This document shows, in pieces, positions 4,131 through 11,577 of a stretch of DNA of 11,577 nt (the first letter of the stretch is position 1; each line of letters begins with the position of its first letter). The notes under the pieces are model-generated. The model did not search any database. It had not been told where the DNA came from and saw only the letters and a list, made by a program, of their open reading frames with translations. The position numbers were made by a program, and so were the translations under genes. The DNA is from a virus. Its lineage: Duplodnaviria; Heunggongvirae; Uroviricota; Caudoviricetes. The stretch is from IMG/VR virus record IMGVR_UViG_3300018477_000015, positions 1-11,577 of that record. The stretch is one strand, 5' to 3'.

Positions 4131-4327
4131 TACTGGCTGCGACATTTTTGAATAAAAGCGTCGATATTTCGGCGCTCATAACGAACTACTTTTGCACTGA
4201 AACGAATTGGTGCCAGGATAGCCCGATGACGATGCTTAATATTCCACTCACATAGCGTTTTCTGTGTAATACCTAACTTTTGGCATACTTCATCCGGGGT
4301 GAGTAAATCGTCGGGTTTCTCGCTCAT
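4127..4327 (-). CDS. AlpA/excisionase-family small HTH DNA-binding protein (candidate recombination directionality factor)
   Basis: 66 aa. LLTPDEVCQKLGITQKTLCEWNIK...ILAPIRFSAKVVRYERRNIDAFI fits the AlpA/Xis winged-helix pattern. Its ATG overlaps the helicase stop (ATGA at 4324-4327) and its stop overlaps the int stop convergently. Confidence 0.65.
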   Translation of the reverse strand: MSEKPDDLLTPDEVCQKLGITQKTLCEWNIKHRHRAILAPIRFSAKVVRYERRNIDAFIQKCRSQY

Positions 4328-5718
4328 GCTATACCTCTCTTTTTCATGGCATCGAGCAGGATGTCCTGCACTGTTCGTTTTGAGTTGCGCCGCTCCATCA
4401 CCATTTCATCCATAGTGTCGGCAGCAATAATGTGGTGAATAAATACCGGACGATTGTGTCCGGCCTGTATCTGCCTGGTGGGGCCGATACGTTCAATAAT
4501 TTGCTGATATTGCTCCAGGTCCCACCAGTGTGAGAAAAATACCAGTATATTTCCGCCGTCCTGCATGTTCAGGCCGTGGCCCGCGCTGGCTGGGTGTGCA
4601 AAGAGAACAGGAATCTTTCCGGAATTCCAGTCGCGCAGTGTCTGTGGATCCTGGTCGAGGTGACGACCGCGAGGGAATGCTTTAAGCAAGCGTTCAAGAT
4701 CGTGTTTCCAGTGATAAGCAACCAGCACAGGTGCGCCAGCTGCTTCGGTCAGTATGCTGTCCAGCGCCTGTAGTTTGGTGTCATGCAGTTCTGACCAACT
4801 TCCGGTGTCATCTGTGTATACTGCGCCGCTGGCGATTTGCAGACACTTCAGTGTCTTTGCCGCGGCGTTCGGTGCTTCGATGCCTTCGCCATTCAGCTCG
4901 AGGAACATTTCCTTTTCCATTTCACGATACTGCTGACGGGCCTTCGGCGGCATATCCACGCGGATTACGTTATGGATGGGGTCTTTGATATCGAACCAGT
5001 CGGCCGCATCCAGCGAGAGGGTTACATCGGCTAACGCTCGCTGTATTTCACCCTGTGAGTGAGCAAAAGGCTCCAGTTTGGTCCAGCTCTGCCCCGGAAA
5101 CTGTATCGAGTTGAACCAGCGTGAGGTAAACGCGCCGTAAGTGCGCCCGAGACGTTGCCCCTGGTCCACAAACCACGATTGTCCCCACAAATCTACCAGG
5201 CCGTTCGGTGCTGGCGTACCGGTGAGATTTATCCAGCGCCGGACATACTTATGCGCCACTTTGCCCAGCGCCGCCGCGCGCTTACCACCACCGCGCAGCC
5301 GGAAGGATTTTAGCCGGGTGCTTTCATCTGGAATGACAGTACCGAACGGCCATCGTTCTCCCAATTCTTCAACCAGCCAGACAAGGTTATCGTAGTTGAT
5401 GGTGAACACGCTTGCGTTGCTGTTCGTCAGCGCCATAGAGCGCGCTTTGGCATTACCAATAATTGGCTGCACCTCGATATTGCGCAAATGTCCCCACTTC
5501 AGTGCTTCATCCGGCCATGTGCTGGCAGCCACGCGCAGCGGCGCGAGGACCAGTGCGGGGCATGTTTCTGCCCCTGCCATAAAGAGATCTTCCAGCGCAG
5601 TGAGCGTTGCCACGGTTTTACCCATTCCCATCCCCGCCCAGATGTTGCCGCGCAGGGTTTCGGTTTCGTGGTTGATAATGAGATCTTGGTAGGGGCGAGG
5701 TATATATTTTGGGGGCAT
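4324..5718 (-). CDS. SNF2-family ATP-dependent helicase (phage replication or recombination module)
   Basis: 464 aa with RPYQ, Walker A AGMGMGKT, DExx box IPDESTRL, motif III LTGTPAPN and a C-terminal GLNMQ...ERIGPTRQIQAG block resembling SNF2 motifs V/VI. AGGAG sits 9 nt upstream of ATG 5718. Confidence 0.85.
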   Translation of the reverse strand: MPPKYIPRPYQDLIINHETETLRGNIWAGMGMGKTVATLTALEDLFMAGAETCPALVLAPLRVAASTWPDEALKWGHLRNIEVQPIIGNAKARSMALTNSNASVFTINYDNLVWLVEELGERWPFGTVIPDESTRLKSFRLRGGGKRAAALGKVAHKYVRRWINLTGTPAPNGLVDLWGQSWFVDQGQRLGRTYGAFTSRWFNSIQFPGQSWTKLEPFAHSQGEIQRALADVTLSLDAADWFDIKDPIHNVIRVDMPPKARQQYREMEKEMFLELNGEGIEAPNAAAKTLKCLQIASGAVYTDDTGSWSELHDTKLQALDSILTEAAGAPVLVAYHWKHDLERLLKAFPRGRHLDQDPQTLRDWNSGKIPVLFAHPASAGHGLNMQDGGNILVFFSHWWDLEQYQQIIERIGPTRQIQAGHNRPVFIHHIIAADTMDEMVMERRNSKRTVQDILLDAMKKRGIA

Positions 5719-5732
5719 ATAATATGGCTCCT

Positions 5733-5768
5733 AAACAACAAAAGGCCAATTTAGGCCTTTTGTTGTTT
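5733..5768. other. perfect 15-bp inverted repeat with 6-nt loop (possible attenuator, weak terminator or processing hairpin)
   Basis: AAACAACAAAAGGCC-AATTTA-GGCCTTTTGTTGTTT. It lies between the stop of the 305-aa gene (5781) and the helicase RBS, and is U-rich on either strand. Confidence 0.5.
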
Positions 5769-5780
5769 TAAAAATGTTAT

Positions 5781-6698
5781 TTATAATAGTGCTGTTACTA
5801 TTGCATCTTTAAAAATATTTTCTTCTTCATTTATTAAAGGTGATGACAGATGAATAATTACTTCTTTTCCTGTCAATACTATTTGCTCGACTTGAAATCC
5901 TGCGTTGTGTAGTCTTTGGCGTAACTTTTCTAGTGCTGATTTTGATATACTAAATCCTTCACTCCTTATAGTATAACTGGCAACTCCATTTTTAATAATA
6001 TCTACAGAGTTGTCAATTTCCTGCTGCGAGTAATTTTTCGGTGAGTCGAAAAATCTGGATTTTGTCGTTGCTGTTGCCCTAAGAGATATCAATAATGATT
6101 TGATATCTTTAATCTCAGATGCCAGATACTCAGTTTCTGATACTTCTTTCTGGTCTAGTTGTGCAACTTTGAAAGTGCCAAAATGTTTGAGGAATGTTGT
6201 GTATTCAGGATCAGTTACTGACTTTAAATATGTTTCTTTTATCTTGCTCGCAAGTCTTTCTTTGAATAAATTGATTGATTGGTATCTTAAATCCGAAGGG
6301 TACTCTAAATGTTCAATTGATGAAATGTCAAAGCTATAAGGAGTGCGCTCGTCCTTAATAATTACGGTCGGTTTGTCAAATGCGAGACGCATTCCTAATT
6401 CAAACATTACATTAGCGTTTCGAGCACTTATATCGCAAACAACTATGGGGTTTTCATAAAGATTTTGAACAATTCGTTTTTGTATTACTGCAACATCATC
6501 ATCTGAACTTACCAAATTTGCCTTGAATCCGGCATCATTTGATGCTTCACAAATAATGTCATGAACATTTCTCCAATGTCCAGTGGGATAACCTTCTATG
6601 TCCGCAATTGGCATAATAATGCCGCATATATGAGGTGGCATATTTTTGTTGTCTTTTACATCATCTTGGTTTATTTCTTTCGTTTGTTGCTTAGCCAT
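5781..6698 (-). CDS. hypothetical protein with N-terminal TIR-like / nucleoside 2-deoxyribosyltransferase-like (Rossmannoid) domain and uncharacterised C-terminal domain; AT-rich insertion
   Basis: 305 aa. N-terminal region has ICGIIMPIA, then DDDVAVIQKRIVQNLYENPIVVCDISARNANVMFELGMRLAFDKPTVIIKDE and EYPSDLRY. The FE(L)G acidic motif after a buried strand is typical of TIR-like (PF10137-type) and NDT-like folds as I recall them. GC content is clearly lower than in the flanking helicase and VRR-NUC genes. Confidence 0.5.
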   Translation of the reverse strand: MAKQQTKEINQDDVKDNKNMPPHICGIIMPIADIEGYPTGHWRNVHDIICEASNDAGFKANLVSSDDDVAVIQKRIVQNLYENPIVVCDISARNANVMFELGMRLAFDKPTVIIKDERTPYSFDISSIEHLEYPSDLRYQSINLFKERLASKIKETYLKSVTDPEYTTFLKHFGTFKVAQLDQKEVSETEYLASEIKDIKSLLISLRATATTKSRFFDSPKNYSQQEIDNSVDIIKNGVASYTIRSEGFSISKSALEKLRQRLHNAGFQVEQIVLTGKEVIIHLSSPLINEEENIFKDAIVTALL

Positions 6699-6713
6699 AG
6701 CTTACACAGACTC

Positions 6714-6998
6714 CTATTGTAATTTTTTGCCTAATATACATGAAAGCTCCTTACTATCCAGTACTACCACGGTAAAGCCCAGTTTTCGCAGACGTTCATG
6801 CTCGCGCAACTGATCAGGTCGTGGTGGTTTGCCTGGTGCTTTGCATTCGACAAAGACGATGCGACCGCCGGGTAGCAGAACAATGCGATCTGGTACCGAG
6901 CGGAGACCGGGAGATACGAACTTAAAAGCAACCCCGCCAGCCTTTTTTACTTCAGCGACGAGGTGCTTTTCGATTAGGTTTTCACGTTCATAGGCCAT
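6714..6998 (-). CDS. VRR-NUC domain nuclease (PD-(D/E)xK family)
   Basis: 94 aa. GLRSVPDRIVLLPGGRIVFVECKAPGKPPRPDQ contains the D...E-x-K signature in the size and arrangement typical of VRR-NUC, a usual partner of phage SNF2 helicases. Confidence 0.8.
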   Translation of the reverse strand: MAYERENLIEKHLVAEVKKAGGVAFKFVSPGLRSVPDRIVLLPGGRIVFVECKAPGKPPRPDQLREHERLRKLGFTVVVLDSKELSCILGKKLQ

Positions 6999-7192
6999 TA
7001 GCTTTCGCCTTCCTGCTTTTTGCGTTTCTTCATGCAGATAGCGCAGTTCTCAGGATGGTCATGCCATTCGTCAATCCTGATACCTGTGAACATCCATTTT
7101 CCGCATAGTGATATGGCTTCCCCCGAATTAAAGAAATGTGCTTTTTTCGACAGGGCGGGGAACCCCCAACCTTTATTATCGATATTAGACAT
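6998..7192 (-). CDS. small putative zinc-binding protein (64 aa), translationally coupled to the VRR-NUC gene
   Basis: Strong SD (AAGGAGG, 6 nt before ATG 7192). Its stop overlaps the VRR-NUC start (TAATG at 6996-7000). Contains a C-x13-H-x-H-x4-C-x2-C motif (SLCGKW...EWHDHPENCAIC). Confidence 0.55.
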   Translation of the reverse strand: MSNIDNKGWGFPALSKKAHFFNSGEAISLCGKWMFTGIRIDEWHDHPENCAICMKKRKKQEGES

Positions 7193-7370
7193 CGTCCACC
7201 TCCTTACGCTTTTCGCGCATGTTCTGCATCAGACAAAAATCAAACCGACGTTCGCTTTGGCCCAGACCTGCATCGCCCGGTCGTACCCGCTGGACTGTTC
7301 AAGGCGCAAAGCCTCCCGCGCAGTCCGGTAATAAAGCGGACTGTCCCGGTATTTAAATGACATAGGGTTT

Positions 7371-7403
7371 TTATTCCCAAATAAAAAACCCCGCAATGCA
7401 GGG
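7371..7403 (-). terminator. rho-independent terminator downstream of the 253-aa gene (minus-strand sense)
   Basis: Minus-strand RNA forms CCCUGC-AUU-GCGGGG (6-bp stem with one G-U pair) followed by UUUUUUAUUU. It lies about 24 nt after the stop at 7428. Confidence 0.5.
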
Positions 7404-7427
7404 TTGTAATCAACAATAAGGGGGTAA

Positions 7428-8189
7428 TTACGAGGAAGCGTTAGCTATTTGAGCTTGTGTAAATTCGAAACCAGAATTTTGTAACCGTTGCACTAGACGA
7501 GGAACTGTTTCACGTACATGGTCGTTGAAATTCAGATACAAAATCCCGTTAGCATCAGAAGGCTGTTCTAGGTGCTGTTTCTGAAGGATTGCTACATTGC
7601 TGCGCCCTAAGGACGAAAGAAGCATACCCATCTCGAGTACAACGTTCTGTCTTGCGCGGGGTTGGATTTCTGCTTCACCGGCGCGCTTTGAGTATCCCAT
7701 ATCATCAGGTGTCAAAAGAACAATCCCGAAACGGGTAGCAGTTTGTCCTTGCCCAATTTCACGTTCAAGCTCTTCAATAATGGTGAGTCCAGTCCCTCCC
7801 GTATTCTGCAAAATGAAATGGTCTGGTAATCCAAGTTTATGAAGGATTAGCTCAAGTTGTTCCTTTGCAGTATGGTCATGGCCGTGAACAATGAATATCT
7901 TTTTGGGAAGCTCAGATGGCTGTTCTACGGCTAGTGGTGTTGCCGTGGGGGGCGTTCCTAAATGGGACATTATTGCAGTTTCAACATTGGGACGTTCTTG
8001 AGGGTTACCTTGAAACTGAATGGTCCGGGTGGTGTAAAGGTTAACAATTACGCCATTCGTTAAACGATAGCAGTCATAAGTCTCACGCTGTTCGTGGGAA
8101 AAATTGGTGAACCCACACTCCCTCAAAAAGTCAGGAAAAGATTCTCTCGGGTATGGATAGGTGATCGGCATTTCAGTTAGTTCCTGCAT
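7428..8189 (-). CDS. TIR-like domain protein (C-terminal TIR-like/NDT-like Rossmannoid domain, uncharacterised N-terminal domain of about 95 aa)
   Basis: 253 aa. C-terminal half has KIFIVHGHD, then FGIVLLTPDDMG...PRARQNVVLEMGMLLSSLGRSNVAILQK and QPSDANGILYLNF, the same motif order as the 305-aa protein and matching my recollection of the PF10137-type TIR-like family. AGGA about 10 nt upstream of ATG 8189. Followed by its own terminator. Confidence 0.55.
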   Translation of the reverse strand: MQELTEMPITYPYPRESFPDFLRECGFTNFSHEQRETYDCYRLTNGVIVNLYTTRTIQFQGNPQERPNVETAIMSHLGTPPTATPLAVEQPSELPKKIFIVHGHDHTAKEQLELILHKLGLPDHFILQNTGGTGLTIIEELEREIGQGQTATRFGIVLLTPDDMGYSKRAGEAEIQPRARQNVVLEMGMLLSSLGRSNVAILQKQHLEQPSDANGILYLNFNDHVRETVPRLVQRLQNSGFEFTQAQIANASS

Positions 8190-8253
8190 AAGTATTGTTC
8201 CTTTAATTTACTCGAATTCAGCATGTCGCCATAGCTCGATAAGGTGAGTTATA

Positions 8254-10350
8254 TCAATCTTTTTTGTAGTGGTACGCCTCAAAGCCGCCAGCGTTCAGCG
8301 GAATATCGGGTGCCCATTCGGGGTTAGTGGAGAGAAGCGCGGAAAGCGCTTTATCGTTGAAATCTTCTGTGTCTGGTGCTTCGGTGATCACCTCGTCGTG
8401 TACCGTTAGCACAATGCTGTAACCGGCACCCTCGATCAGCGGCATGTTTCTGGCCAGAACGTCGCGGGCGGCCGCCTGGGTGACGTTCTCCACCAGCTTT
8501 CCGCCGTAGGTTTTGAGTCGTTGCCATTTACGCGAATAAGAGTTAACACCCATGTAGGTGATATTCCCTTGTTCGATAACCGGAGACGGGTAGCATACAG
8601 CGCGTCCGGATGGTAGCTGTATGCGCAGCCACGCGCCATCACGTCGGATTTTAAGATAGCCGCAATACAATGTTTTTTGCGGTATGGCGATTGCTGTGCG
8701 GACAGTGCGCTCCAGCTCGTACCAGAAATCGCAGGTCGCCGGGTGCGCCCTGCGCCACAGGCGCTTGAGCGAGTCACATGCGATGAATACACGCTCGGAA
8801 AGGCCAAAGGTCGACTTACGTTTAACCGATTCGTCGTACCAGCTTTTCGCCTCGCGGATAACATCGCGGGGAATGTTTGGCAGTGCGGCGTTCGCCAGCT
8901 CGTCGAGATCGAGACCGTAAACCAGAGCAAAAGTGATGAAAGCCGATACACCACCTCCATAACCCAGACCGAGTTCCATGACTTTACCGATCTGACGCAT
9001 GTGTTTATCAACATCATCTGGTGCAATATCGAAAGCTTTTGCATACGCCAGTTTATATAAGTCCGGACCCGTTCCAGCGTCATACTCTCTGAATGCATTC
9101 AGTTTCCATTCTTCTCCCGCCAGCCATGCCAGCATACGGCCTTCAATGTTTGACAAGTCACTTACCACCAGTTTTTTGCCTGTTGGCGCGATAATGCAGC
9201 CACGTAACGCTGAACTGGTTAGTTCCATGATATTGTCAAACAGCAGGTCTGCACATCCGGCTTTCAGTGCTTCGATGCCTTCGTCTATTTGTTCCTGTTT
9301 TAGTGAAGGGCGGGGAAGGTTCTGGGGCTGGAATAGCCGTCCGGCCCAACGACCGGTACGTGACGCCCCGCAGAACTGTAGCGTACCGCGTAAGCGCCCG
9401 TCGTGGCTTACGCCTTTCATCAGTGCCTTGTATTTACTGGTGCTGGTAGTACTGGCTTGCAGGCGGATAGCCAGCAGTTCTTTCACGGCAGATGATAAAT
9501 CGGGGTCGGCCATACGACGTTCCAGGGTACTGCGTTGCATGTCTGGTAGCTCCACACCGTAGGATTCAACGATGTGCTTAATCAACGCGTCCCGTTGTGT
9601 GGCTGCCTGCACTTCGCCATCAGTCATTTCCTGTGTACGCTTTGCCAGGCGCTTTTGCTCCTGGTCTACCGCTTCGATCGCAGCGCGCGCGAGTTGCATG
9701 TCCATGCAGACGCCCCGGTCGTTGATCTGCTGATCACGATGCCAGAGCGCCAGCTCTGTCCCCTGATAATTCCACTTCGGCAGACGTTTATAGACTTCGC
9801 GCATTGCTTCGATATCCAGTCCGGCGTAAGCAACAAAGCGCCGCCATTCTTCCGGATGGGTTTTACTGGTGGCCCGACGCAGTTTGCTGTTTTTCGGATG
9901 TGGCTTACAGAACAGCTGGATCAGCGCTTTACCTTCTTTGTCCTTCGCTTTGTCTTGCGGGACGCCTAGTACTTCGCAGAGTTCCCCCAGAGACCCCGGG
10001 AGACCGTGCGCCAGCGCCTGCACCATCGTGTCGCGCCAACGTTCGACTGGCGGTGCCAGTCGCGGCATTGCATAACGCAGAACGGTGCGGTCGAAGTGAG
10101 AGTTATGGAAATAAAGCAGGGTTTCAGGGTCTGCGATTGCTTCGTATAAGCCGTGTGGAATACCACCACCGGCAGTGATATCCCACACGTTTACTGGCCC
10201 GTCGTTGATAGCCCATGCGAAAAGCATCACTTCAACGCCTTCGGCATACGCATGGGTACCGTTCGTAATAGGGATTTCGCAATAGGTTTCCAGGTCGCCC
10301 CAGAGAATACTTTGATGTTGTTTATTTGAGGGGACTATATTATTTTTCAT
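8254..10350 (-). CDS. family A DNA polymerase with N-terminal 3'-5' exonuclease domain (phage-type PolA)
   Basis: 698 aa. Exo motif LWGDLETY, polymerase motif [21 protein letters not shown], motif [17 protein letters not shown], motif C LTVHDEV. Confidence 0.9.
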
Positions 10351-10384
10351 ATGGGCAAACTAGCTAATAAAGTTGAGGAAAAAA

Positions 10385-10588
10385 ATGTCTGAATCTAAGT
10401 TCAAACCTGGAGACCGCGTACAACATCTTTCTGGTGGGCCTGTTCTTGTGGTTGTTAGCACAGGATATATTCCTGCAACAGCTTTTAATGGCGACTTCAT
10501 TCGCGTAACTTGTGAATTTTGGGATGAATCTAAAAAAGCTTTCGTAAAACAGGATTTTGTTGAAACTTCTCTTGAAGATTACGAATAA
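10385..10588 (+). CDS. DUF2158 (YodC-like) small protein
   Basis: About 67 aa from ATG 10385, with GAGGA 5 nt upstream; the track's 10373 start is a TTG. KPGDRVQHLSGGPVLVV...CEFWDESKKAFVKQDFVETSL fits the GD.V.L.SGGP...C.WFD...K..F pattern of the DUF2158 family. It lies opposite in orientation to the surrounding replication genes. Confidence 0.65.
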   Translation: MSESKFKPGDRVQHLSGGPVLVVVSTGYIPATAFNGDFIRVTCEFWDESKKAFVKQDFVETSLEDYE

Positions 10589-10604
10589 CTCATAACACAA
10601 TCCT

Positions 10605-10628
10605 CAAAGCGCCCCTAAGGGCGCTTTG
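10605..10628. terminator. bidirectional hairpin terminator between convergent genes
   Basis: Perfect 10-bp stem CAAAGCGCCC / GGGCGCTTTG with CTAA loop, followed by GCGTTT on the plus strand. It sits 17 nt after the DUF2158 stop and 4 nt after the DUF2815 stop. Confidence 0.55.
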
Positions 10629-10632
10629 GCGT

Positions 10633-11181
10633 TTAAATCAGTGCTTCAGCATCAGCACCTTCGCTGATATCGTCGAAATCGTCAGCGCTTGCCACTCCGC
10701 CGCCAGCGAATGCATCGCCGTCTCGCAGGAACTGGACTCCGCCGAGTGAGGCATTAATGCGTTTACCGAAATTATTGTCCTGTGCCCAGATATCGATAAC
10801 GGCGTTTACATAGCACCCTGCATAGGGACGTCCATCAGCCTGAATTAGTGGCGAACGATCGCGATCAAGAACAGCTGGGCGCGCTTTGTTAGCAGCATTC
10901 AGGAAGAAATTACCGGGGAAGCCTTCATACTCTGCTTTTTCATCACCATCATGCAGGCACAGATTGAGTTTTTTCTCCAGTTGGTTATAAATGGGCTCCC
11001 ACTTCTCTCCCCATTTTTCCTTCGCTACCTGCTTCATAGCTTTACGGATTTCTTCCAGTTGTGGGTGTTTGGGAGACATTAAAAATACTGCGGAGAAACG
11101 CGGATCGCCTTCGCCGTTTACAGTTTTAGCTTCAAACAGAGACGGGAAGGCCAGACGAACATTGTTCAGCTTCAGTTTCAT
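10633..11181 (-). CDS. DUF2815-family phage protein (ssDNA-binding-like), with acidic C-terminal tail
   Basis: 182 aa beginning MKLKLNNVRLAF, the N-terminal signature I associate with DUF2815 proteins found next to phage family A polymerases. AAGGAAA SD 8 nt upstream. C-terminus is DDFDDISEGADAEALI. Confidence 0.65.
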   Translation of the reverse strand: MKLKLNNVRLAFPSLFEAKTVNGEGDPRFSAVFLMSPKHPQLEEIRKAMKQVAKEKWGEKWEPIYNQLEKKLNLCLHDGDEKAEYEGFPGNFFLNAANKARPAVLDRDRSPLIQADGRPYAGCYVNAVIDIWAQDNNFGKRINASLGGVQFLRDGDAFAGGGVASADDFDDISEGADAEALI

Positions 11182-11196
11182 GGGTATTTCCTTAAA

Positions 11197-11577
11197 TCAG
11201 ATGAGGTCTGCGGTTAGCGTATCGTCGGATACGTCGTCGAAATCATTTACAGGGTTGATATTGAGTGCGGGGCGTGGGTCTGACTCGGGAACGACGGTTG
11301 GTTTACCATCAGCTCGTGTTATCAGTGCCTCGACTTTTGACCAACGGCGCGGACTGGCCTTTTTGATAAGTTTTTCGGCTTTTGTGGGACTAATAAGTTT
11401 AAAGTCGAATACTTCTTCAGTTTTGTACCTGAACTGGTCCTTCAGAAGTGCGCGAGCTGCCTCTTCATCACTCCAGGCCCGGTTACCTTGTTTTCCTGTT
11501 ACCAGTTTAAACCCCGGTACCGGATGTCCGGCATTGAGTTCATTGTGAACCCGGTCCCGTACTGCCTTTAGCCAGGA
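11197..11577 (-). CDS. phage replication-module protein, C-terminal 126-aa fragment (5' end outside window); possibly the DUF2800-type nuclease that usually precedes DUF2815
   Basis: Minus-strand frame is open from the window edge to TGA at 11197-11199 and ends ...NDFDDVSDDTLTADLI. The stop lies 15 nt upstream of the DUF2815 start. It is not in the ORF track because there is no Met in the window. The family assignment is a guess from gene order. Confidence 0.45.
   Translation of the reverse strand, partial: SWLKAVRDRVHNELNAGHPVPGFKLVTGKQGNRAWSDEEAARALLKDQFRYKTEEVFDFKLISPTKAEKLIKKASPRRWSKVEALITRADGKPTVVPESDPRPALNINPVNDFDDVSDDTLTADLI

What the first reader, a model, noticed from the sequence alone, without database searches (positions are those of the whole stretch)
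10373..10628. Opposite-strand DUF2158 gene with bidirectional terminator splits the DUF2815-PolA operon
A small plus-strand gene with a good RBS sits between two minus-strand replication genes. The PolA start is only 35 nt from its start codon (divergent), and a perfect 10-bp hairpin closes it against the convergent DUF2815 gene. The polymerase must therefore be driven from a promoter inside or antisense to this gene. The function of DUF2158 is unknown. Its insertion in the opposite orientation inside a replication module suggests a moron with independent regulation.
Basis: partly seen in the sequence, partly recalled or inferred. Interest (0 to 1): 0.4.

Follow-up and report, generated by a model that had tools for sequence, protein, structure and literature searches.

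The report
Swappable small-gene cassette in prophage replication operon
A 67-codon gene with its own start signals and stop hairpin sits backwards between the DNA-binding and polymerase genes of an E. coli prophage, in a slot where related phages carry at least 22 other contents or nothing, so it is a real but fairly ordinary accessory gene ("moron") whose protein function is still unknown.

Summary
ATG 10385 to TAA 10588 (+) encodes 67 aa behind a GAGGA Shine-Dalgarno. It lies 34 nt from the divergent PolA start (10350) and is followed by a hairpin of 10 Watson-Crick pairs plus one G-U pair (10604-10629), 3 nt from the DUF2815 stop.

The moron reading is supported. Phages and 159 of 5,426 complete E. 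coli genomes share the flanks at 98-99% identity, but homology breaks exactly at 10310-10632. None of those genomes holds this cassette.

In 76 IMG/VR relatives the slot has 23 states, from empty (86-92 bp) to 2.6 kb. Cargo includes AT-rich membrane proteins, Nmad5, a SIR2-like candidate defence protein, SPFH and HNH. The cassette is AT-rich, carries a sigma-70-like promoter and evolves under purifying selection.

Two points need correcting.
- The protein misses Pfam's DUF2158 cut-off (12.6 against 22.3 bits). It is a divergent YodC/DUF2158 relative only through intermediate homologues and a confident SH3-like model.
- Nothing supports a PolA promoter inside the cassette. Read-through of the hairpin is more likely, because the empty backbone also has a hairpin there and 63% of relatives carry an antisense gene there.

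Verdict: a new member of a known kind, of modest interest.

The parts
10310..10632 (.). Exchangeable cassette: the segment that differs from otherwise 98-99% identical phages and prophages
   Evidence: blastn against ON470582 aligns window 4324-10309 and 10633-11577 only. The segment is absent from all 5,426 complete E. coli genomes by sensitive blastn. GC is 0.38-0.39 against 0.51-0.60 in the flanks.
10312..10341 (+). Sigma-70-like promoter candidate for the small gene (TTGATG, 18 nt, TATATT). It overlaps PolA codons 4-13. Predicted transcription start is near 10348.
   Evidence: It is the only 9-of-12 match in 9800-11577 and the best plus-strand site in my own scan. The -35 element is kept in L089 and L090. 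A TATATT/CATAGT element sits in the same place in other plus-strand cargo cassettes. This is consensus-level evidence only.
10375..10379 (+). Shine-Dalgarno GAGGA, 5 nt before the ATG
   Evidence: Read directly from the sequence. Purine-rich equivalents occur in L089, L090 and L080.
10385..10588 (+). 67-aa protein: a divergent YodC/DUF2158-like SH3-type small beta-barrel, acidic, with no transmembrane segment
10604..10629 (.). GC-rich hairpin (10 Watson-Crick pairs plus G-U, loop CTAA). It is the cassette's terminator-like element, 15 nt after the small gene's stop and 3 nt before the DUF2815 stop codon.
   Evidence: Folds at z = -5.2 and -4.6 on the two strands. The stem is conserved with a variable loop in L089, L090 and L080. 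It is followed by T5-T6 on the plus strand in L089 and L090, but only TTT here.
10310..10350 (-). Cassette-encoded N-terminal extension of PolA ([14 protein letters not shown]), with no Shine-Dalgarno before the ATG
   Evidence: Relatives with other cargo start MSNI-LWGD or MSETI-LWGD. The extension travels with the cassette in L089 and L090.
8254..10350 (-). Family A DNA polymerase with 3'-5' exonuclease (left flank of the slot)
   Evidence: Pfam DNA_pol_A E 2.4e-14; NCBIfam partial hits.
10633..11181 (-). DUF2815 / Enc34-type ssDNA-binding protein (right flank of the slot)
   Evidence: Pfam PF10991 E 7.6e-44 over the full length.

Best explanation
Window 10310-10632 is a self-contained accessory-gene cassette (a moron). 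It occupies a hypervariable cargo slot between the ssDNA-binding (DUF2815) and DNA polymerase genes of an E. coli temperate phage.

Shown:
- The slot is bounded by the DUF2815 stop codon and about codon 14 of PolA.
- Its content is exchanged among phages whose flanks are nearly identical.
- This cassette is a rare allele that always sits in this slot.
- The ORF is under purifying selection.
- The protein is a divergent YodC/DUF2158-type SH3-like barrel.
- The hairpin travels with the gene.

Inferred:
- The gene is transcribed from its own sigma-70 promoter (10312-10341), against the direction of the early-left replication operon. It would therefore be made in the repressed prophage, and its transcript would stop at the hairpin.
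- During lytic growth, leftward transcription from the promoter near the repressor gene reads through the hairpin to express PolA. The hairpin is weak in that direction and starts 3 nt after the DUF2815 stop, where a terminating ribosome should hinder folding.

Most speculative: the protein acts as a small binding module that benefits the lysogen, by immunity against other phages or by modulating a host machine. This would match the other antisense, AT-rich cargo in the slot.

My probabilities:
- Exchangeable accessory cassette: about 0.9.
- Own promoter, with PolA expressed by read-through: about 0.6.
- Lysogen-expressed immunity or host-modulating binder: about 0.3.

The overall confidence of 0.6 refers to the cassette reading together with the expression model, not to the protein's function.
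For: Mosaic structure:
- Flanks are 99% identical to phages ON470579, ON470582 and ON470588, with a break exactly at 10310-10632.
- 159 of 5,426 complete E. coli genomes share the flanks, yet none holds the cassette.
- The exact protein occurs on 113 contigs. In all 7 places examined it sits between PolA and DUF2815, next to differing neighbour cargo: a TIR protein, BstA, a methylase or an HATPase.

Slot survey:
- 76 IMG/VR loci with DUF2815 at 92-100% identity fall into 23 slot states. 11 loci are empty (86-92 bp) and 2 hold this cassette.
- Cargo includes Nmad5, AntA, SIR2_2 (PADLOC PDC-S25, E 3e-138), Band_7, DUF4145 and HNH.
- 48 of 76 loci carry a plus-strand (antisense) gene next to PolA. 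These genes mostly have GC 0.27-0.39.

Long-term retention: the ORF is 82-91% identical in backbones whose DUF2815 and PolA are only 76-83% identical. A 41%-identical homologue with the same hairpin occupies the slot in L080.

Coding: third-position bias in substitutions.

Promoter and terminator.

Read-through: there is no minus-strand promoter upstream of the PolA ATG, and the empty backbone also has a hairpin followed by UUUU between the two genes.

Fold: pLDDT 87, SH3/KOW/Tudor-like.

Defence link: YodC-domain proteins accompany UG2 defence reverse transcriptases (bioRxiv 10.1101/2021.12.02.470933, read).
Against: - There are no expression data. The promoter is a 9-of-12 consensus match, no more frequent than in shuffles, and its -10 element is only loosely kept in L089 and L090.
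- In this window the hairpin lacks a proper U-tract on either strand, so termination in either direction is unproven.
- The protein matches no PADLOC model. PHROG 3261 has unknown function.
- The fold is generic, so the protein's role is a guess by context.
- Only one slot cargo matches a defence model, and that model (PDC-S25) is itself only a candidate system.
- Phage-specific promoters that differ from sigma-70 would escape my scans.
Confidence: 0.6

Rival explanations
1. PolA has its own promoter within or antisense to the small gene, and the hairpin fully terminates the upstream operon.
For: A stable, conserved hairpin lies between DUF2815 and PolA. The terminator scan flags a minus-strand terminator-like site at 10620-10602. 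AT-rich cargo DNA could hold weak or phage-specific promoters.
Against: - The only minus-strand sigma-70-like sites (TTAGCT or TAGCTA with AATAAT, 8 of 12) place the transcription start downstream of the PolA ATG.
- Twenty-three different slot contents would each have to supply a PolA promoter.
- The empty backbone has a hairpin but no room for a promoter.
- The minus-sense U-tract is poor, and the stem starts 3 nt after a translated stop codon.
Confidence: 0.2
2. The protein is a lytic-cycle factor, either a replication accessory of PolA/SSB or an anti-defence protein, rather than a lysogen-expressed gene.
For: - It is embedded in the replication module and its cassette supplies the PolA N-terminus.
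- In Klebsiella Jedunavirus phages a DUF2158 gene lies about 230 nt upstream of a DNA polymerase gene.
- It is small and acidic, as many anti-defence proteins are.
- A 4-repeat relative gives weak CarD/TRCF-RID and PcrA Tudor hits, which are RNA-polymerase-binding domains.
Against: - Most relatives replicate without it, including backbones with 98-99% identical PolA and SSB.
- The Jedunavirus polymerase is unrelated to this one.
- Its orientation opposes the early operon, so strong lytic transcription would collide with it.
- It has no fixed partner gene.
Confidence: 0.15
3. The unit acts mainly in cis. Convergent transcription or antisense RNA from the plus-strand promoter tunes how much leftward transcription reaches PolA, and the peptide is secondary.
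For: The plus-strand transcript would be fully complementary to the read-through RNA upstream of PolA. The slot natively carries an attenuator-like pair of alternative hairpins. Antisense genes occupy the slot in 63% of relatives.
Against: The ORF shows clear purifying selection at the protein level and an invariant motif shared with distant homologues. Unrelated proteins of 60 to 230 aa fill the same position, which fits cargo rather than a conserved regulatory RNA.
Confidence: 0.1
4. The ORF is not a gene; it is a chance open frame in an AT-rich spacer.
For: It is short, and the Pfam, NCBIfam and PADLOC thresholds are not reached.
Against: - Substitutions are third-position biased in three diverged copies.
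- There are 11 phmmer hits at E < 1e-3 in 1.84 billion proteins.
- The fold model is confident.
- The start codon and Shine-Dalgarno are conserved.
- The overlapping minus-strand ORF has its first codon position on the variable sites.
Confidence: 0.02

Closest known systems
Morons of lambdoid phages (Juhala et al. 2000 definition; examples are lambda bor and lom, and HK97/HK022 extra genes). From my own knowledge.
   Same: An extra gene that is present in one phage and absent from close relatives. It lies between two core genes, has its own promoter-like site and terminator hairpin, and has deviant base composition.
   Different: It is inserted antisense inside an early replication operon rather than in the late or structural region. 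The cassette also re-writes the first 13-14 codons of the downstream core gene (PolA).
Cargo hotspots of P2-like phages and P4 satellites (Rousset et al. 2022). From my own knowledge.
   Same: Conserved flanking core genes enclose a highly polymorphic locus that is exchanged by recombination. Some alleles resemble defence proteins (SIR2-like PDC-S25).
   Different: It is a different phage family and position (the DUF2815/PolA junction). No slot cargo here is an experimentally validated defence system. This allele is a 67-aa soluble protein with no defence-model match.
E. coli YodC / Pfam DUF2158 (PF09926, COG5475)
   Same: It shares the motif K-F-x-x-G-D-x-V-x-H-x-S-G-G-P ... C-x-W-W ... F ... 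L, a size of about 60-70 aa and a predicted SH3-like barrel. Six of its phmmer relatives pass the Pfam cut-off.
   Different: The window protein itself scores 12.6 bits against a cut-off of 22.3, because of a loop about 10 residues longer between strands 2 and 3. YodC is a chromosomal, RpoS-dependent small protein of unknown function (PMC5437024), not prophage cargo.
KOW / Tudor / HspQ small beta-barrels (NusG C-terminal domain 1m1g, HspQ 5ycq, PcrA Tudor 5dma)
YodC-domain proteins encoded next to UG2 (DRT2-type) reverse transcriptases
   Same: The same domain family occurs in a defence-associated gene neighbourhood (bioRxiv 10.1101/2021.12.02.470933).
   Different: Those proteins are longer, some with a WYL-like C-terminus, and accompany a reverse transcriptase. 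No reverse transcriptase or partner gene is linked to this cassette.

Membership tests
Pfam DUF2158 (PF09926) / YodC | Whole-protein score at or above the curated gathering cut-off (22.3 bits) | tested here: not met
   12.6 bits, E 0.12. Close variant P0003 scores 14.7 bits.
Pfam DUF2158 (PF09926) / YodC | Significant sequence homology to proteins that do pass the cut-off | tested here: met
   phmmer E-values range from 2.8e-5 to 3.9e-4 against a 1.84-billion-protein library for P0006, P0007, P0009, P0010, P0012 and P0013. All six score 23-46.6 bits on PF09926.
Pfam DUF2158 (PF09926) / YodC | Conserved G-D-x-V ... G-G-P strand-turn motif and C-x-W-W strand; small all-beta barrel | tested here: met
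   The invariant columns are F6, G9, D10, G18, P19, V23 and F58. The nearly invariant ones are V12, H14, G17, C43, W46, F53 and L63. The AlphaFold2 model has five strands and pLDDT 87.
Moron (autonomous extra gene in a phage genome) | Present in some genomes and absent from otherwise closely related ones, at a precise junction | tested here: met
   The empty state is 86-92 bp, and 22 alternative contents exist.
Moron (autonomous extra gene in a phage genome) | Own promoter upstream and terminator downstream | tested here: inconclusive
   Promoter-like TTGATG-18-TATATT lies inside the cassette. The hairpin is conserved and has T5-6 in L089 and L090, but only TTT here. There are no transcript data.
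Moron (autonomous extra gene in a phage genome) | Base composition different from the neighbouring genes | tested here: met
   GC is 0.385-0.39 against 0.51-0.605 in the flanks. GC at third codon positions of the ORF is 0.24.
Moron (autonomous extra gene in a phage genome) | Expressed from the repressed prophage | not testable with these tools
   Needs strand-specific RNA-seq or a reporter fusion in a lysogen.
Bidirectional intrinsic (Rho-independent) terminator | Stable GC-rich stem-loop | tested here: met
   -18.9 kcal/mol with z = -5.2 on the plus strand; z = -4.6 on the minus strand.
Bidirectional intrinsic (Rho-independent) terminator | U-rich tract directly after the stem on each strand | tested here: inconclusive
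   The plus strand reads UUUGGCGUUU and was not flagged by the scan. The minus strand reads UUUGAGGAUUGUGUUAU and was flagged only with a shorter alternative stem. The count of sites equals that in shuffled sequence. The relatives' plus strand has U5-6.
Prophage defence or accessory hotspot (P2/P4 type) | Conserved flanking genes with many unrelated alternative contents | tested here: met
   23 states in 76 loci.
Prophage defence or accessory hotspot (P2/P4 type) | Known defence systems among the alternative contents | tested here: inconclusive
   Only the SIR2-like cargo matches a PADLOC model: candidate system PDC-S25 (E 3e-138), plus a weaker ThsA hit (E 2.9e-18). The six other slot cargo proteins scanned (five membrane or uncharacterised proteins and the DUF4145 protein) and the 67-aa protein match none.
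Prophage defence or accessory hotspot (P2/P4 type) | Cargo protects the lysogen against phage | not testable with these tools
   Needs plaque assays.

The most novel reading that the evidence does not exclude
The DUF2815/PolA junction of this E. coli prophage family is, as far as the few literature searches run here show, an undescribed immunity-gene hotspot. Its smallest allele, the 67-aa YodC/DUF2158-like barrel, would be a stand-alone lysogen-expressed factor that blocks or modulates an incoming phage or a host machine (for example RNA polymerase, Rho or Lon) by direct binding. That would give the first function to the YodC/DUF2158 family.
Probability: 0.2. Interest if true: 0.6.

Novelty: new member of a known kind. 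Interest (0 to 1): 0.35.

Why it matters
As a single gene it is a routine moron. Its value lies in what the comparison revealed.

- The junction between the DUF2815 ssDNA-binding gene and PolA is a precise, highly polymorphic cargo slot in a common E. coli prophage family. The flanks occur in about 3% of complete genomes.
- Most alleles are antisense, AT-rich genes of unknown function. A second variable region downstream of PolA holds TIR, BstA and methylase genes.
- Such slots are productive places to look for new phage-immunity or counter-immunity genes.
- This allele offers a tractable entry to the uncharacterised YodC/DUF2158 family.
- It also gives a clean natural system for studying how an essential polymerase gene is expressed across a convergent inserted gene and hairpin.

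Tried and rejected
- Pfam, NCBIfam, PADLOC and PHROGs scans of the 67-aa protein gave only a sub-threshold DUF2158 hit and PHROG 3261 of unknown function.
- Sequence searches of the PDB with the family profile found nothing meaningful; the best E was 0.73.
- The word-indexed protein search found only 3 clusters.
- A scan of one genome per species found one 34%-identical Microscilla relative.
- Plasmids gave no match.
- IMG/VR holds the gene on 2 contigs and the L080 homologue on 1.
- Rfam gave only sub-threshold sraL-like hits caused by the hairpin.
- The idea that DUF2158 genes are functionally tied to DNA polymerases was rejected for lack of support. It came from a Jedunavirus neighbourhood, but that polymerase is unrelated, and a bona fide DUF2158 query found only one further phage record.
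- Contexts of distant homologues P0006 and P0008 were short, uninformative contigs.
- The repeat proteins P0004 and P0005 gave no usable clue. P0004 is an Ig-repeat protein. P0005 gives weak CarD-RID and PcrA Tudor hits.
- The search for related loci with the family alignment failed because no conserved 7-10-column stretch exists.
- The afdb50 fold library was unavailable.
- Literature searches for the three related phage names and for PDC-S25 / PDC-S35 returned nothing useful.
- The overlapping minus-strand ORFs (10364..10600 and 10360..10500) were rejected, because the variable sites fall on their first codon position.

Full report
**1. What is in the sequence**

The plus-strand ORF listed at 10373..10588 most plausibly starts at ATG 10385, 5 nt after GAGGA (10375-10379). 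It encodes 67 aa: MSESKFKPGDRVQHLSGGPVLVVVSTGYIPATAFNGDFIRVTCEFWDESKKAFVKQDFVETSLEDYE.

On the minus strand it is flanked by two genes.
- A family A DNA polymerase at 8254..10350 (Pfam DNA_pol_A, E 2.4e-14).
- A DUF2815 / Enc34-type ssDNA-binding gene at 10633..11181 (PF10991, E 7.6e-44).

The divergent start codons are 34 nt apart. A hairpin of 10 Watson-Crick pairs plus one G-U pair (10604-10629, loop CTAA) lies 15 nt after the small gene's stop and 3 nt before the DUF2815 stop codon. It folds at -18.9 kcal/mol with z = -5.2, and at z = -4.6 on the other strand.

**2. Is the ORF a gene?**

Yes. Two diverged copies were recovered from other E. coli assemblies, in the same slot: L090 (91% aa identity) and L089 (81%). 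Substitutions fall mainly on third codon positions: 24 of 37, 11 of 18 and 21 of 31. Synonymous codon changes outnumber non-synonymous ones.

The variable sites are the first codon positions of the overlapping minus-strand ORF, so that ORF is spurious.

The hairpin stem is identical in the window, L089, L090 and a much more distant cassette (L080), while the loop differs: CTAA, CAGC, TTCA, TTAA. In L089 and L090 the stem is followed by T5-T6 on the plus strand, which is a canonical intrinsic terminator for the small gene. In this window only TTT follows.

**3. What the protein is**

Pfam gives DUF2158 at only 12.6 bits (E 0.12) against a cut-off of 22.3. NCBIfam and PADLOC give nothing, and the PHROGs match is family 3261, of unknown function.

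An exhaustive phmmer search of 1.84 billion representatives finds 11 proteins at E < 1e-3. Six of the small ones pass the DUF2158 cut-off themselves, at 23-46.6 bits.

The alignment shows an invariant F-x-x-G-D ... G-P ... V ... F core and a nearly invariant C-x-x-W. The window protein has a loop about 10 residues longer between strands 2 and 3.

So the protein is a divergent member of the YodC/DUF2158 superfamily. The literature records very little about that family:
- YodC is an RpoS-dependent small protein (PMC5437024).
- YodC-domain proteins accompany UG2 defence reverse transcriptases (bioRxiv 10.1101/2021.12.02.470933).

**4. The decisive comparative result**

Three E. coli phages (ON470579, ON470582, ON470588) match the flanks at 99% identity but cover only 82-83% of the query. 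Pairwise blastn shows that homology stops at 10309 and resumes at 10633. Those phages carry a 736-bp segment there, encoding a 209-aa plus-strand membrane protein.

In RefSeq, 159 of 5,426 complete E. coli genomes share the flanks. The slots listed have different spans, one of them holding an Nmad5 gene. None holds this cassette, even with sensitive blastn.

The exact 67-aa protein is nevertheless on 113 contigs. In all seven places inspected it sits between PolA and DUF2815, while the region downstream of PolA differs: a TIR protein, BstA, a methylase or an HATPase.

**5. Survey of the slot**

I fetched 80 IMG/VR loci with a DUF2815 protein 92-100% identical to the window's. Of these, 76 contain both flanks. 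The DNA between the DUF2815 stop and PolA codon 16 clusters into 23 states.

| Slot content | Loci (of 76) |
|---|---|
| Empty (86-92 bp) | 11 |
| This cassette | 2 |
| A plus-strand (antisense) gene next to PolA | 48 |
| Minus-strand cargo only | 17 |

The other states run up to 2.6 kb. They include two families of AT-rich plus-strand membrane proteins, as well as:
- Nmad5
- an AntA antirepressor
- a SIR2-like protein (PADLOC candidate PDC-S25, E 3e-138)
- SPFH lipoproteins
- a DUF4145 protein
- an HNH endonuclease

Plus-strand cargo genes next to PolA mostly have GC 0.27-0.39.

One locus (L080) carries a 60-aa DUF2158-like homologue, 41% identical, with the same type of hairpin.

The window cassette has GC 0.38-0.39 against 0.51-0.60 in the flanks.

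The cassette ORF is 82-91% identical in backbones whose DUF2815 and PolA are only 76-83% identical, whereas backbones 98-99% identical carry other cargo. This is the mosaic pattern expected of recombinational cargo exchange, with long-term retention of the gene.

**6. How it is likely expressed**

The only good sigma-70-like site in 9800-11577 is TTGATG-18-TATATT at 10312-10341, on the plus strand. It lies wholly inside the swapped segment and overlaps PolA codons 4-13. It would start transcription about 36 nt before the ATG.

The cassette also encodes a 13-14-residue N-terminal extension of PolA ([14 protein letters not shown]). This extension is kept in L089 and L090 and is absent from other alleles.

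Other plus-strand cargo alleles have a TATATT/CATAGT element at the equivalent place. It is created by the PolA codons AAT ATA and by a synonymous CTA Leu codon, which the empty alleles lack. I treat this as suggestive, because shared ancestry of the left boundary could also explain it.

**7. How PolA is likely expressed**

I find no minus-strand sigma-70-like site upstream of the PolA ATG. The only 8-of-12 matches would start transcription downstream of that ATG.

The empty backbone already carries a GC hairpin followed by UUUU between DUF2815 and PolA, and that spacer has an alternative fold. In most alleles an antisense gene starts 20-50 nt from PolA, which leaves no room for a promoter.

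In the leftward direction the window hairpin has a poor U-tract. It also begins 3 nt after a translated stop codon, where a terminating ribosome should hinder folding. That last point comes from my own knowledge of ribosome-terminator interference and was not tested here.

The better reading is that PolA is expressed by partial read-through from the early-left promoter near the repressor gene. The operon layout behind this is: repressor, then a 49-aa gene, a 300-aa gene, DUF2800, DUF2815, the slot, PolA, a variable region, the SNF2 helicase and an Xis-like gene. The hairpin would then set the SSB:polymerase ratio and insulate the antisense gene.

**8. Function of the protein**

This remains inference. 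The position and orientation match other cargo in these prophages, such as the plus-strand BstA_C gene in the neighbouring variable region. BstA is known from the literature as a prophage-encoded abortive-infection protein; that is my own knowledge. This favours a lysogen-expressed accessory role. The fold favours action by binding a protein or nucleic acid.

There is no partner gene, no defence-model match and no informative neighbourhood for distant homologues.

A replication-accessory role is unlikely, because near-identical polymerases work without the gene. The one other DUF2158-polymerase neighbourhood involves an unrelated polymerase.

**9. Verdict**

- The moron interpretation is supported and extended: the site is a 23-state cargo slot.
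- The obligatory internal PolA promoter is not supported.
- The DUF2158 label is only transitively valid.

This is a new member of a known kind, an accessory cassette in a prophage hotspot. It is of modest interest in itself. It is more useful as a pointer to a polymorphic locus worth screening for immunity functions.

Noticed in passing
window 5781-8189 (minus strand); compare L002-L008: There is a second variable region between PolA and the SNF2 helicase. Here it holds a 253-aa TIR protein (7428-8189; Pfam CAP12-PCTIR_TIR E 2.9e-31; PADLOC candidate PDC-S35 E 1.3e-108), a 305-aa protein with a weak TIR-effector hit (5781-6698, E 1.1e-6) and two small ORFs. Sister prophages with the same 67-aa cassette carry other genes there instead: BstA_C, a DNA methylase, DUF4406, HATPase_c or a TfpB-like gene, several of them on the plus strand.
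   Followed up: partly
L061 5544-5640 (the empty-state DUF2815-PolA spacer): The empty spacer can fold in two ways. One is a terminator-like hairpin, CACCCGGCC/GCCGGGUG followed by UUUU. The other is a longer hairpin that uses the 3' half of that stem together with a downstream GCAAAGCACCC segment. This looks like a possible attenuator controlling polymerase expression.
   Followed up: no
window 10310-10350; L089 and L090 PolA 5' ends: The cassette supplies a 13-14-residue N-terminal extension of PolA ([14 protein letters not shown]; MKNNAKQLNGQHQN; MESNAKKPNKQYQT). The extension has no Shine-Dalgarno before its ATG, and its coding DNA doubles as the promoter region of the antisense gene.
   Followed up: partly
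L075 and L076 slots, first about 40 nt next to PolA: A palindromic CCTAGG sits between divergent start codons only about 20 nt apart. It appears to provide the Shine-Dalgarno (AGGAG / AGGAT) for both PolA and the antisense cargo gene.
   Followed up: no
slots of L001, L042, L014, L065 and of L075, L073, L076, L059: Two families of AT-rich antisense membrane proteins dominate the slot. One family shares a C-terminal ...FPxxxxIxKxNxxLxKIDA motif. The other shares an N-terminal MELTISFSTIL..GFLGVY helix. Neither family has a Pfam or PADLOC match, though one is PHROG 10579, of unknown function.
   Followed up: partly
L016, L010, L049, L052 slots: Nmad5-family (nucleotide-modification-associated) genes of 212-223 aa occupy the slot in the operon orientation in 20 of 76 relatives. 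They occur alone or stacked with an antisense gene or an HNH endonuclease.
   Followed up: no
L093 (Klebsiella phage 1611E-K2-1) 2998-5561: In Jedunavirus phages an annotated DUF2158 gene lies two genes upstream of an unrelated DNA polymerase gene, in the same orientation.
   Followed up: partly
P0005 (507 aa, metagenomic): This protein has four tandem DUF2158-like repeats. They give weak hits to the CarD/TRCF RNA-polymerase-interacting domain and the PcrA/UvrD Tudor domain. That is a faint hint that this barrel type may contact RNA polymerase.
   Followed up: no
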